Source of the DNA: Promethearchaeota archaeon
GTDB lineage: Archaea; Asgardarchaeota; Lokiarchaeia; Sigyniarchaeales; SOKP01
Assembly (NCBI GenBank): GCA_019057865.1
Contig: JAHLWP010000010.1
Span: 54,086 to 118,085 of the forward strand
DNA: 64,000 nt
Reading direction: 5' to 3'
The notes beneath the pieces are model-generated. The model was not told where the DNA came from. It worked only from the letters and a program-made list of their open reading frames with translations, and did not search any database. Positions 8,161 through 63,809 of this stretch are shown here, piece after piece (the stretch's first letter is position 1; every line of letters begins with the position of its first letter). A program made the position numbers and the translations under genes.

Positions 8161-8532
8161 TTAATTTGCTTTTAAAACTAATGTTATAGCTCTCGTTAAA
8201 CGAATAATATCCATTACTTTACCTTTCTCTACATTAATTTCTTCACGACTAATGGCATGCGTGAAATCACCTTTTCCATTACAAATTTTAACGATTGAAT
8301 TAGGATCTCCAGACATAACAATAACTGAATCTGATTTGGTCCCTTCTAACAAAATTGCTTTGCGGTTTTTAATATCTACATAAAAAGGGTCTTCAATATC
8401 AAGGTTGAATTGAAATGACATTTCCCAATCAACGTCCTTCCCAGCAATATTAGTTACAAAAACAACTTGAGCTTTTTCATTTTGGTTTATTTTTTCAATA
8501 ATTTTTGTTAAATTATCTCTTGCTATACCCAT
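8161..8532 (-). CDS. SCP2 sterol/lipid-binding domain protein
   Basis: FQFNLD..PFYVDI..., GDFTHAISREEINVEKG pattern; lies in a thiolase-DUF35 operon. Confidence 0.7.
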   Translation of the reverse strand: MGIARDNLTKIIEKINQNEKAQVVFVTNIAGKDVDWEMSFQFNLDIEDPFYVDIKNRKAILLEGTKSDSVIVMSGDPNSIVKICNGKGDFTHAISREEINVEKGKVMDIIRLTRAITLVLKAN

Positions 8533-8534
8533 TT

Positions 8535-9029
8535 TTACTTCCCTCCTTCATATTCAGGTTTATTAATCCAGTTTTCATATTCATCTTCTGGAACAAAGAA
8601 GAAATCTGTCATTTTCCCTTCTCTTACTTTGTTAAAAACAGCTCTAACTCTTCTTCCTTTTTTAATCTTAGAAGGAACTAAATTTTCTGAAAAAATTCCT
8701 TGAAGTAATGCGGTTTCTGCTCCATCTAATTTTATAAAGCCTATACTATAAGGTACGGCTTTTATAAATGCAGAAGTTGTATACCATACAATTGTGCTAA
8801 CTTCTATAGTTCCTGTTTGGTTCAATTCTACCCATTTAGCAGGAGCAAAACAATCAGAGCAATTGATCCTTGGAGGCATCCATGTCTTTCCACATTTAGT
8901 ACATTTTGTGCCCAATAGTTTTTTATTTTTCATTAATTCTAAAAAGAATTTGGATTGTCCTCCCATTGTGTATTTGTAGTTGATCCTTATTACATCTCTT
9001 ATTTGATGCTCCTGAAATTCTTCGCTCAT
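8535..9029 (-). CDS. DUF35 Zn-ribbon/OB-fold protein (thiolase partner)
   Basis: GTKCTKCGKTWMPPRINCSDC, IKLDGA, RVRAVF. Confidence 0.9.
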   Translation of the reverse strand: MSEEFQEHQIRDVIRINYKYTMGGQSKFFLELMKNKKLLGTKCTKCGKTWMPPRINCSDCFAPAKWVELNQTGTIEVSTIVWYTTSAFIKAVPYSIGFIKLDGAETALLQGIFSENLVPSKIKKGRRVRAVFNKVREGKMTDFFFVPEDEYENWINKPEYEGGK

Positions 9030-10375
9030 GGTTTTTTCAACCCCTCCTCATTTGTCATTACTATAACCGCAGCATATGCCGCTCCAGGGCCTCCTATTGA
9101 GTGAGCAATAGCTCTGCCATTTTCAATTGTTTTTATTTGATGCTTTCCAGCATCCTCTCTAAGCTGAAGTGCTGCTTCACCTGTAGACATTATCCCGGTA
9201 GCACCAACAGCATGACCACATCCAATTAATCCACCGCAAGGGCAACATGGTAATTCACCATCTAACCATGGCCCCTCCCCTGGTTTTTCAAAGGATTTTT
9301 CAATCCATGGACCACCTTCCCCAAAAGGAACAAACCCAAGCTCCTCATAAGAGATGACTTCTTATCCAGAGAATATCGAACTGATATTCATTGTCCTGAG
9401 AAGGCATCATGGAGCTCTGCTAAATCAATTTGTTCCTTTATTTTATTATAGTCTAAGCCTGCCATCTTATACGCGGCTTTTGCAGCAAAAATATTTGAAT
9501 ATAACCTTCCCATATCTTCTCTATTTCCTATAAAACAATCGGTATTTGCTGCTGCGACACCAGTAATCCAAATCGGCTTTTCAATTTTTAATTCTCTTAC
9601 TTTTTCTTCACTTGCGAGAATTAATGCTGCTGATGCTTCTGAATATAAACAACAATCAAGCATCTTGAAGGGATGACAAATTATCCTTGAGTATAGGACA
9701 TCATCTAAGGAAATTTTCATAGGGGATTGTGCTTTTGGATTGAGCATAGCATTCCCATGGTTTTTTACGCTAACTTTAGCCAATTTTAACTAATTGTTAA
9801 GATTTAAAGCCATTTGTTCTTCGGTAGGATTACCGAATTCTTCATAATGGGCGTTTACCATAGAAACGTACGAGGTTGCTGCCATCATTCCCATAGGATA
9901 TTTACGAAATATGTAGAACTTACACCATTTTTTCGTAAGTCATATCAGTAGAATAGGCGATGGCATTCAAAACTTCAGGTGTCGTAGTTCCTGTTTGTTC
10001 GTCATAGCAATCATTGCATTTTTCGACTCCTATACATAAACATAAGTCAGATAAGCCAGAAGCTACTTCTGCAAAAGCCATTCGGACAGTATATCCTCCT
10101 GTTGCTCCTCCTGTTGCTATACGAGTACCAGGTTTATTATTCATCCCTATATAGGAATTACAAAAAATATCTGGCATAAATTGTCTTTCAAATAGCTCAT
10201 TATAGATTCCATATACCGTAGATTGTAAATCCTTATGAGTTATTTCAGCACCGTTATTATTTGCGTCCTCAAGTGCTAATTTTGTTGCATCATATGCTAA
10301 TTCAAAATATGTCTTATCTAAATACTGGGCTTTAAAAGGAGTAATTCCTATACCTATAATCGCAACTTTCTTCAC
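9026..10375 (-). CDS. Thiolase-superfamily (SCP-x/Ltp-like) protein, 4 exons (10375-9932, 9900-9806, 9775-9393, 9363-9026), 419 aa after removing three predicted BHB introns
   Basis: 1350 nt minus 31+30+29 nt = 1260 nt = 419 codons plus stop. Spliced junctions read DMTYE/YPMG, EEQMAL/VSVKNH and ELHDAFSGQ/EVISYEELG. C-terminal GGLIGCGHAVGATG. The stop overlaps the DUF35 ATG (ATGA). Confidence 0.88.
9364..9392 (-). other. Predicted BHB mRNA intron 3 of thiolase 1 (29 nt)
   Basis: mRNA: GAUGCCUUCU-CAGG-AC^A-AUGAAUAUC(AGUUC)GAUAUUCU-CUGG-AU^A-AGAAGUCAUC. Exon stem 9/10 bp; central helix has one A.G mismatch. Removal restores the frame. Confidence 0.75.
9776..9805 (-). other. Predicted BHB mRNA intron 2 of thiolase 1 (30 nt)
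   Basis: mRNA: AAU-GGCU-UU^A-AAUCUUAAC(AAUUA)GUUAAAAUU-GGCU-AA^A-GUU. Contains an in-frame UAG. Spliced product is MALVSVKNH. Confidence 0.85.
9901..9931 (-). other. Predicted BHB mRNA intron 1 of thiolase 1 (31 nt)
   Basis: mRNA: U-UACG-AA^A-AAAUGGUGUA(AGUUC)UACAUAUUU-CGUA-AA^U-A. Perfect 4-bp central helix. Spliced product is TYEYPMG. Confidence 0.85.
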
Positions 10376-58119: not shown

Positions 58120-58300
58120 AATAATTCAAAATATTCTATTATAATTCTTTATATAATGACAGTTATACTGATGGGTATCAAAAAGATAATTAAACTTTTA
58201 ATTATTTGTGTTTACTTTTATAGCTAATTAAAAACACAAAATTAATAATTTATTCATTTTTACTATCTTTAAATAAATGCCTCCGTAGCTTAGCGGTATA

Positions 58301-58330
58301 ACTACTATTATTTTATAATCGCAGGACTAT
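58301..58330 (+). other. tRNA intron at position 23/24 (D-arm), 30 nt, relaxed BHB
   Basis: GGUA-UA^A-CUACUAUUA(UUUUA)UAAUCGCAG-GACU-AU^G. Removal restores the D stem. Confidence 0.75.
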
Positions 58331-58366
58331 GCATCCGACTTGTAATCGGAAGGTCGGGGGTTCAAA

Positions 58367-58395
58367 ATGACAATGCATTCGCATTGTAATGAAAA
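58367..58395 (+). other. tRNA intron at position 59/60 (T-loop), 29 nt, canonical BHB
   Basis: GGGGG-UUCA-AA^A-UGACAAUGC(AUUC)GCAUUGUAA-UGAA-AA^U-CCCCC. Confidence 0.92.
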
Positions 58396-58601
58396 TCCCC
58401 CCGGGGGCTTCTATATTTTATGATGAATACTATTTAACATTTTTCTGGATTATGTTGATTATGGCTGGAATTCAATTTCTAAGTTTTCTAATATTTAAAA
58501 CGATCAACAGAAAAGAATATGAACATAAACATATTTTAAAGAAATACAATATAATACAATAAAATCTCAATTATTTCCATAGCTCCCATTTTTAATTTAT
58601 T

Positions 58602-62612: not shown

Positions 62613-63809
62613 TCACCTCATAGGTTCTTTTCCTAATATTAGTATTTCTGTCCAAAGTGAACCGCCAAATCCCATTGCTAAAGCATTTTCTGCATCAGGT
62701 ACTTGACGTTTTTCACCTCTGCCCATTACTTGAGTTGCTGCCTCAGCTACTCGAATTAATGCTGTAGCACCTATAGGATTAGTACTCAATACACCTCCCG
62801 ATGGATTAACTGGTAATTCTCCACTCATTTCAGTAATTCCCTCATCTAACAACTTCCCTCCTTCACCAAATTTAGCAAATCCTAGGGCTTCTGTCCATGC
62901 TAATTCGCTCCAACTTGTGGGTTCATATATTTCAGCGACATCTAAATCTTTTATTGGATTAGTGATTCCTGCTTTTTTATAAGCTTTCTTTGAAGCAATC
63001 GTAGCTGTAGGGAGATTATACATTGCATCATCAGTCCCAAAGGTATAATAATGAGCAGTTTCTAAGGCTTTAAACCATGCCGGATTATCTGTTATCTTCT
63101 TAGCTTCTTCTTTATTTGCATAAATTAGAGCACATGCTCCTTCACTCTGTGGACAGCAATCATGTAATCTTAATGGATATGATATCATCTGTGAACTCAT
63201 AACATAATCTACAGTAATATCAGGCATTTGTAGATGTGCAAATGGATTATTAGCGGCATTACGACGATTTTTTACAGTAACTTTTGCTGCTTGTTCTGGT
63301 GTTGCGCCATATTTATCTTGATACATAGATGCCATAAGGGCTAGTGGACCGAGAGCACCAGCTAAAGATGGTCTTTCCCATACCGGATCAAATGCTGTTA
63401 TTATACCGGTAGTAGCTCCACCTTCTTTTAATTTTTCCCAACCAACAACTAAAACCTTGTTATAAATTCCTGAGGCAACATTGTGATAACCACATATAGC
63501 TAAGGAACTACCCGTTGTGCCACCTGTTGCAACCTTAACTACAGGTTTTAAATATCCAGGAGCTCCTTCAATTCCACAGAATAATTCAGAGAAATTAATT
63601 CCTTCAAAATGGTCCATTTAGTATTTAATCTCGAGATGAAATTAAATATTACCAATGACGATCGCATCAATCTCTTTAGGTTCAAGTTGAGCATCATCAA
63701 GAGCCATCTTTACGGCTTCGTATACCATCTCAGGGATATTAACATCTCTTCTCTTACTCCTAAATTTAGTCTGACCTATGCCGACTACGGCTACATCATG
63801 TCTCGGCGT
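62613..63809 (-). CDS. Thiolase-superfamily (SCP-x/Ltp-like) protein, 2 exons (63809-63648, 63617-62613), 388 aa after removing one predicted BHB intron
   Basis: Exon 1 reads (ACG)PRHDVAVVGIGQTKF...DAQLEPKEIDAIVIGN and joins MDHFEGIN... of ORF 62613..63617. VKNRRNA, AEIYEP, PVNPSGG, NPIGATA. Confidence 0.88.
63618..63647 (-). other. Predicted BHB mRNA intron of thiolase 2 (30 nt)
   Basis: mRNA: GGUA-AU^A-UUUAAUUUC(AUCUC)GAGAUUAAA-UACU-AA^A-UGGAC. 9-bp intron stem; in-frame UAA. Spliced product is IGNMDHF. Confidence 0.87.

What the first reader, a model, noticed from the sequence alone, without database searches (positions are those of the whole stretch)
9364..9392. Thiolase 1 intron 3: relaxed BHB next to the conserved HDAF motif
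Strong exon stem GAUGCCUUCU/AGAAGUCAUC and a 7-bp intron stem with the same AGUUC loop as intron 1. The central helix CAGG/CUGG has an A.G mismatch at the wobble position of Ser codon UCA; UCC would pair fully. It may splice more slowly, or indicate a broad-specificity endonuclease. The tRNA D-arm intron also has an A.G mismatch in its helix.
Basis: partly seen in the sequence, partly recalled or inferred. Interest (0 to 1): 0.75.

Follow-up and report, generated by a model that had tools for sequence, protein, structure and literature searches.

The report
Mismatched tRNA-type mini-intron in Asgard gene
A 29-base insert that breaks a thiolase-like gene of an Asgard (Loki-type) archaeon is very probably a real intron cut out of the messenger RNA by the tRNA-splicing enzymes, and its imperfect cut-site helix is a tolerated natural variant, which fits the broad-specificity type of splicing enzyme that this genome encodes.

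Summary
Confirmed. 9364-9392 (minus strand) is a 29-nt insert absent from about 30 orthologous genes. Cutting after the second base of each bulge restores HDAFSGQEVI, the commonest homolog motif. The central helix is C-G, A·G, G·U, G-C. This geometry alone is near chance (P 0.16-0.47); the proof is comparative. Relatives carry a homologous intron at the same site: 30-nt forms with a fully paired helix, and 29-nt forms with A·G (six other assemblies), G·G or U·U (Lokiarchaeum GC14_75) at the same pair. The hairpin shows compensatory changes. Intron-bearing alleles have a far stronger exon stem (8.5 vs 4.7 Watson-Crick pairs), dN/dS about 0.02-0.17 and no other lesions. The genome has RtcB and a two-subunit EndA whose catalytic subunit keeps the Aeropyrum broad-specificity loop (K-P-R). 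tRNA-Thr also has an A·G helix. Corrections: the exon stem has one C·U mismatch; UCC occurs in no allele (the natural paired state is UCU with CCAG); the shared loop is not conserved. Slower splicing is untested, and no RNA run was listed. This scan noted the same intron class before, in this gene, genome and others. Papers I could search document only cbf5 inside an archaeal coding sequence.

The parts
9364..9392 (-). Intron 3, 29 nt, relaxed BHB; frameshifts the gene and carries a stop two codons in
   Evidence: absent from orthologs; removal restores SGQEVI; homologous introns at the same site in more than 20 other contigs
9395..9398 (-). Central helix, exon strand (CAGG); 9397 is the Ser wobble A facing 9367 G
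9366..9369 (-). Central helix, intron strand (CUGG); CCAG, CUAG or CUUG in relatives
9392..9394 (-). 5' bulge, cut between 9393 and 9392
   Evidence: BHB rule; agrees with the homology-defined junction
9363..9365 (-). 3' bulge, cut between 9364 and 9363
   Evidence: BHB rule; agrees with the homology-defined junction
9371..9389 (-). Intron hairpin, 7 bp with 5-nt loop; compensatory changes across the family
9399..9408 (-). Exon stem, 5' arm (codons D-A-F-S); synonymous choices favour pairing
9353..9362 (-). Exon stem, 3' arm (codons Q-E-V-I)
9026..10375 (-). Host gene: thiolase-fold protein, four exons, 419 codons when spliced, Gly in place of the usual nucleophile Cys; stop overlaps the DUF35/ChsH2 start
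9901..9931 (-). Intron 1, 31 nt, helix 4/4
9776..9805 (-). Intron 2, 30 nt, in-frame stop, helix 4/4 with two G·U
58301..58330 (+). D-arm intron (30 nt) of tRNA-Thr(UGU), helix 3/4 with A·G: internal control for mismatch tolerance

Best explanation
Intron 3 is a functional tRNA-type (bulge-helix-bulge) intron in a protein-coding mRNA. The transcript folds a 9-bp exon stem, a 4-position helix with one non-standard pair, and a 7-bp intron hairpin. The two-subunit EndA cuts after the second base of each 3-nt bulge, and RtcB joins the exons to rebuild the Gln codon after HDAFSG. The mismatch at helix pair 2 is a tolerated decay from an ancestral U-A pair, not a regulatory device and not a fatal lesion. 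The flanking stems, and probably the K-P-R loop of EndA, hold the substrate in register. The intron belongs to one family resident at this site in many Lokiarchaeia and moves between gene backgrounds with a tract of flanking exon. SHOWN: insert, boundaries, frame restoration, allelic series, exon-stem bias, purifying selection, enzyme genes and loop motif. INFERRED: cutting and ligation in vivo, the role of the loop, the direction of decay, the transfer mechanism.
For: Removal gives the commonest homolog motif (46 full-length homologs). All 27 distinct thiolase introns scored at six sites have 3/4 or 4/4 helices at the homology-defined junction with the 2|1 cut: 22 at 4/4, 5 at 3/4; rough joint shuffle P 4e-6 over six sites. 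Site-3 family: 12 distinct alleles; stem pairs covary (A-U/G-C; A-U/U-A; G-C/U-A/A-U). Pair 2 is U-A in 30-nt forms, A·G in G000 and six other assemblies, G·G in L083, U·U in GC14_75 and kin. Exon stem 8.5 vs 4.7 Watson-Crick pairs (11 vs 31 alleles); the nine genome hits came from a degenerate pattern that did not ask for the stem. dN/dS about 0.02-0.17 between intron-bearing alleles on both sides of the intron, including mismatch-bearing pairs (L046/L057 0.04 and 0.10; G000/L082 0.075 and 0.105; G000/L083 0.06 and 0.08), with no other stop or frameshift. EndA alpha with Tyr/His/Lys and K-P-R loop, beta subunit, intact RtcB. The only tRNA-Thr(UGU) found with an intact anticodon loop has an A·G helix, conserved in G030. 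cbf5 introns are also relaxed and linked to two-subunit EndA (PMC2738675, PMC10485636).
Against: No spliced RNA was seen. A 3/4 helix is near chance on its own (the Asgard tRNA preprint 10.64898/2026.10.13.758758 says the same of its relaxed class). In the folding model the 3|3 register is poorly populated (5e-5, vs 0.04-0.56 for 30-nt alleles); a slipped register with 5- and 4-nt bulges is about 4-5 kcal/mol lower and, cut by the usual rule, gives a frameshift. Identical tracts around the intron (174 nt between G000 and L082) show recent exchange, so pairwise dN/dS does not date how long each background has lived with the mismatch. The gene is not known to be essential, and distant paralogues exist. 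The pair-count shuffles of the MAFFT alignment were not significant (83/500); alleles are related, not independent.
Confidence: 0.8

Rival explanations
1. BHB splicing works in this lineage, but the mismatched 29-nt form is spliced poorly or wrongly, so these alleles are weak or recently dead copies spread by gene conversion or homing.
For: Lowest modelled BHB occupancy of all site-3 alleles; a competing slipped register that is fully paired with both natural Ser codons of this intron type (UCA, UCG); recent conversion tracts; HNH-type endonuclease genes upstream of some intron-bearing alleles.
Against: The two 29-nt subtypes differ at 8 of 29 bases yet keep the hairpin through a compensatory change and keep helix pairs 1, 3 and 4. 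No carrier has a second lesion. Exon 4 stays under purifying selection. Intron 1, with a perfect helix, is also poorly populated in the same model (4e-4), so the model is a weak guide.
Confidence: 0.12
2. The mismatch is kept by selection as a rate-limiting, regulatory splice site that tunes output of the thiolase-DUF35-SCP2 operon (the strong form of the first reader's idea).
For: Pair 2 is non-standard in all three 29-nt subtypes, and the Ser wobble changed A to G without regaining the pair.
Against: The identity of the mismatch is not conserved; 30-nt alleles pair fully; most relatives lack the intron; mismatches fall at other helix positions in other introns. All of this fits drift within tolerance.
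Confidence: 0.05
3. The insert is not removed from RNA: it is a hairpin insertion or short duplication that splits or kills the gene, or it is bypassed by the ribosome.
For: The insert ends resemble a 12-nt imperfect direct repeat (10 of 12 bases, seen); databases annotate GC14_75's copy as two proteins.
Against: Three inserts in one gene and six sites across relatives all obey the 2|1 cut rule; the repeat follows from the near-palindromic helix; no copy of the intron elsewhere in the genome; purifying selection on both sides; the break falls right beside the conserved HDAF motif and changes frame.
Confidence: 0.03

Closest known systems
BHB intron of cbf5 pre-mRNA in Desulfurococcales and Sulfolobales (Watanabe 2002; Yoshinari 2006; Yokobori 2009, PMC2738675)
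   Same: Short intron inside a coding sequence; relaxed BHB; cut after bulge base 2; host has a two-subunit EndA with the specificity loop.
   Different: Asgard host; metabolic, not RNA-modifying, gene; three introns in one gene and six sites across relatives; patchy, with signs of lateral exchange; splicing not yet shown on RNA.
5' UTR intron of Haloferax HVO_1309 (PMC7714728; PMC10485636)
   Same: EndA substrate in an mRNA.
   Different: Outside the coding sequence; homodimeric EndA; shown by circRNA-seq and in vitro.
Non-canonical tRNA introns of Asgard archaea (bioRxiv 10.64898/2026.10.13.758758) and Crenarchaeota
   Same: Size, BHB geometry, repeated gain, a minority with relaxed helices, two EndA paralogues.
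   Different: Those lie in tRNA genes; the preprint does not mention mRNA (0 occurrences).

Membership tests
EndA-spliced BHB intron in a coding sequence (cbf5 type) | Short intervening sequence absent from orthologs; removal restores the conserved frame | tested here: met
EndA-spliced BHB intron in a coding sequence (cbf5 type) | Boundaries fall after the second base of two 3-nt bulges | tested here: met
   the 2|1 cut is one of three shifts allowed by homology and the one that leaves the exon stem flush
Canonical BHB (hBHBh') | All four central pairs form | tested here: not met
   3 of 4 (A·G at pair 2); met in 30-nt alleles at the same site. It is a relaxed BHB, not a canonical one.
EndA-spliced BHB intron in a coding sequence (cbf5 type) | Flanking helices | tested here: met
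   exon stem 9/10; intron stem 7 bp, offset by one base
EndA-spliced BHB intron in a coding sequence (cbf5 type) | Host encodes EndA and an RNA ligase | tested here: met
EndA-spliced BHB intron in a coding sequence (cbf5 type) | Spliced RNA or cleavage by EndA demonstrated | not testable with these tools
   no RNA run was listed
Broad-specificity (alpha-beta)2 EndA, Crenarchaea-specific-loop type | Separate catalytic and structural subunits | tested here: met
   C71 copy has Tyr/His/Lys; C69 copy lacks the His
Broad-specificity (alpha-beta)2 EndA, Crenarchaea-specific-loop type | Loop with Lys-Pro-Arg/Lys beside the active site | tested here: met
   K58-P59-R60 aligns to A. pernix K44-P45-R46 (PMC3241643, PMC12397907)
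Broad-specificity (alpha-beta)2 EndA, Crenarchaea-specific-loop type | Measured cleavage of relaxed substrates | not testable with these tools
   needs recombinant enzyme
Group I / group II self-splicing intron or IS element | Ribozyme core, or transposase with terminal repeats and dispersed copies | tested here: not met
   29 nt; no Rfam match; no second copy in the genome

The most novel reading that the evidence does not exclude
Lokiarchaeia routinely splice ordinary mRNAs with a broad-specificity tRNA endonuclease. Mini-intron families occupy fixed sites in coding genes, spread between species with flanking exon (possibly driven by neighbouring free-standing endonucleases), shape synonymous codon choice, and survive decay of the central helix. 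The site-3 alleles are then a natural test series for the enzyme's tolerance, and many 'split genes' in Asgard annotations, including the first Lokiarchaeum genome, are intron-containing genes.
Probability: 0.7. Interest if true: 0.85.

Novelty: new variant of a known kind. Interest (0 to 1): 0.66.

Why it matters
Papers I could search document endonuclease splicing inside an archaeal coding sequence only for cbf5. If confirmed, the closest prokaryotic relatives of eukaryotes have multi-intron protein genes that are processed by the tRNA-splicing machinery. Their annotations would then miscount split genes: GC14_75's copy is deposited as two proteins, KKK41227.1 and KKK41228.1. The narrower point of this finding, the A·G pair, is not remarkable alone. 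Its value is a four-state natural series at one helix position (U-A, A·G, G·G, U·U) plus an identified candidate enzyme loop, which makes the long-proposed link between EndA architecture and the birth of mRNA introns directly testable.

Tried and rejected
Searches for a full-length protein matching the spliced product found at most 93% overall identity; the closest in exon 4 (P0008, L091) is an ordinary intron-less allele with an AGT Ser codon. A de novo genome scan for frame-joining BHB motifs gave only weak excess over altered bulge sizes (18-20 vs 6-16 in the strictest class), so I give no genome-wide count. No site-3 intron was found in 53 other genomes of the genus with an exact-match pattern (not proof of absence), and none in viral contigs. 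Rfam and ARAGORN miss the tRNA and the introns. The first metagenome pattern required a G000-like exon stem, so its hits are circular for the stem test; one search is the non-circular set. An 18-nt indel at about 9295-9277 is shared with many orthologs and is not an intron. A 15-nt match of intron 2 to a repeated genomic element was judged probable chance. Upstream endonuclease-like genes also occur beside intron-less alleles and are absent here, so homing is a lead only. The atlas hit for the HNH protein was below 0.9, a lead only.

Full report
Setting. The window lies on contig C7 of a 4.26-Mb genome. Close homologs are labelled Promethearchaeota/Lokiarchaeia, so the host is a Loki-type Asgard archaeon (inference). 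The gene at 10375-9026 (minus strand) is a thiolase-fold gene (PF00108) coupled to a DUF35/ChsH2 gene and a small downstream gene. It has Gly where classic thiolases have the nucleophile Cys. Its frame is broken at three points only.

The observation. Alignment with 29 orthologous gene copies shows three inserts of 31, 30 and 29 nt that those copies lack. Boundaries by the bulge-helix-bulge rule are 9931-9901, 9805-9776 and 9392-9364; each rebuilds the ortholog residues. For intron 3, removal gives HDAFSGQEVI, the commonest motif among full-length homologs (46 cases); unspliced, a stop follows Gln. The helix is C-G, A·G, G·U, G-C, and the A is the wobble of Ser UCA. The exon stem has 9 of 10 pairs. 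The intron hairpin has 7 pairs but is offset by one base from the bulge. The 3-of-4 helix alone is near chance (P 0.155, or 0.47 with boundary ambiguity), so the case rests on comparison. The same intron and UCA codon occur in six other assemblies, which excludes an assembly error.

The site-3 family. Pattern scans found a 30-nt intron at exactly this junction in 10 metagenome contigs and 9 genome contigs. Protein clusters truncated at the same point led to 29-nt forms, including Ca. Lokiarchaeum GC14_75 (GCA_000986845.1), where the gene is deposited as two proteins. The 12 distinct alleles align as one family. The hairpin core is kept, with compensatory changes at three stem pairs in my hand alignment; the pair-count tool on the MAFFT alignment showed 97.7% pairing against 26-62% for slid partners, but no significant shuffle result. 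Helix pairs 1, 3 and 4 always form. Pair 2 is U-A in all 30-nt alleles, A·G here, G·G in L083 (Ser UCG) and U·U in the GC14_75 type. The 29-nt forms lack one base just before the helix, which explains the offset. The simplest history (inferred) is decay from UCU with CCAG. UCC was never seen: intron-less alleles use AGT 20, TCT 8, TCA 5; intron-bearing alleles TCT 24, TCA 1, plus TCG in L083. The loop shared with intron 1 varies within the family and is weak evidence of anything.

Signs of function. Intron-bearing alleles have 8.5 Watson-Crick pairs in the 10-position exon stem against 4.7 in intron-less alleles, achieved through synonymous codons. The nine genome hits came from a pattern that did not require this. 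Pairwise dN/dS among intron-bearing alleles is about 0.02-0.17 both upstream and downstream. For mismatch-bearing pairs it is 0.04/0.10 (L046/L057), 0.075/0.105 (G000/L082) and 0.06/0.08 (G000/L083). None has another stop or frameshift. Across six intron sites in this gene family, all 27 distinct introns have a 3/4 or 4/4 helix at the homology-defined junction; 5 are 3/4, with the mismatch at pair 1 or 2. Relaxed helices are thus a regular minority. Caveat: tracts of identity surround the intron (174 nt with no difference between G000 and L082, about 16 expected), so alleles recombine and dN/dS does not date the coexistence of exon and mismatch.

Mobility. On the gene tree G000 groups with three intron-less alleles (96/97), apart from the 30-nt clade and the GC14_75 clade. 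Its segment around site 3 (coding positions 900-1100) is instead closest to intron-bearing alleles. This points to acquisition with flanking exon (inference; no one-clade test was run). HNH-type endonuclease genes lie just upstream of some intron-bearing alleles (L035, E 2e-16; L052, E 1e-21), and L046 keeps a short remnant similar to the L035 gene. Similar Cys-rich genes also flank intron-less alleles and none is present here, so homing stays a lead.

The enzyme. The genome has two EndA paralogues and one intact RtcB. The C71 protein has the Tyr/His/Lys triad, is closest to Aeropyrum pernix EndA among solved structures (E 3e-35), and has K58-P59-R60 aligned to K44-P45-R46. That loop confers cleavage of non-canonical substrates (PMC3241643), while a two-subunit enzyme without it is restricted (PMC12397907). 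The C69 protein lacks the His. An internal control exists: tRNA-Thr(UGU) at 58279-58409, the only one found with an intact anticodon loop, has a 30-nt D-arm intron with an A·G in its helix, conserved in G030, while G009 has the intron-less gene. If this tRNA is needed, the enzyme must accept such a helix.

The weak point. In nearest-neighbour folding the 3|3 register is rare (5e-5, against 0.04-0.56 for 30-nt alleles). A slipped register with 5- and 4-nt bulges is lower in energy (-14.7 vs about -10 kcal/mol), is fully paired with either UCA or UCG, and would give a frameshift if cut by the usual rule. This is compatible with slower or less accurate splicing. But intron 1, with a perfect helix, also scores low (4e-4), and the slipped register is not available to the GC14_75 type. 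The proposed UCC change raises modelled occupancy only to 5e-3 and makes an over-extended helix the best fold. The natural 30-nt allele is the better positive control.

What is known. cbf5 is the documented coding-region case; its motif is also relaxed and tied to two-subunit EndA (PMC2738675, PMC10485636). HVO_1309 is a 5' UTR intron (PMC7714728). A 2026 preprint covers Asgard tRNA introns and does not mention mRNA. Six literature searches found no report of coding-region BHB introns in Asgard archaea; the library is incomplete. This scan has noted the class many times, in this gene, this genome and others; I treated these notes as leads, not evidence.

Verdict. A real relaxed-BHB intron, probably spliced (0.8). 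The mismatch is a tolerated variant, and the broad-specificity enzyme reading is supported by sequence. Slower splicing is untested. New variant of a known kind; interest 0.66.

Noticed in passing
window 63618-63647 (-): A second thiolase-fold gene has a 30-nt insert with two in-frame stops, a 4/4 helix and a 9-bp hairpin. Five relatives lack it, and removal restores GNMDHFEG.
   Followed up: yes
window 58279-58409 (+): tRNA-Thr(UGU) with a D-arm intron and a second, T-loop intron; missed by ARAGORN and Rfam. The T-loop intron boundaries were not fixed.
   Followed up: partly
L025, L036, L040, L041, L045, L047, L048, L055, L083: The same thiolase gene carries 29-34-nt BHB introns at six sites in relatives, up to four per gene; two sites lie only 13-16 nt apart, giving micro-exons.
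   Followed up: partly
P0007, P0146, P0152, P0156: Homologs truncated right after HDAF suggest a further insert a few bases upstream of site 3; DNA not fetched.
   Followed up: no
L035:5306-6394 (-), L052:530-2734 (+), L040:2047-4902 (-), L048:3173-6010 (+): Large genes directly upstream of the thiolase, same strand: tandem HNH (L035), zinc-finger endonuclease (L052), and a roughly 950-aa multi-HTH protein (L040, L048). The upstream slot varies greatly among relatives.
   Followed up: partly
L043, L049, L054: Tandem duplication of the thiolase-DUF35-small gene unit; in L054 one copy has the site-3 intron and the other does not.
   Followed up: no
window 9026-10375 with 8535-9029 and 8161-8532 (-): Cys-less thiolase fold coupled to DUF35/ChsH2, recalling the Ltp2-DUF35 aldolase type (from memory, not tested).
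   Followed up: no
G000 C7, C40, C54, C64, C78: A repeated AT-rich element, often near contig ends, shares 15 nt with intron 2; probably chance.
   Followed up: partly
L091:672-1838: Intron-less allele with a 90-nt in-frame deletion in the region of window 9641-9552.
   Followed up: no
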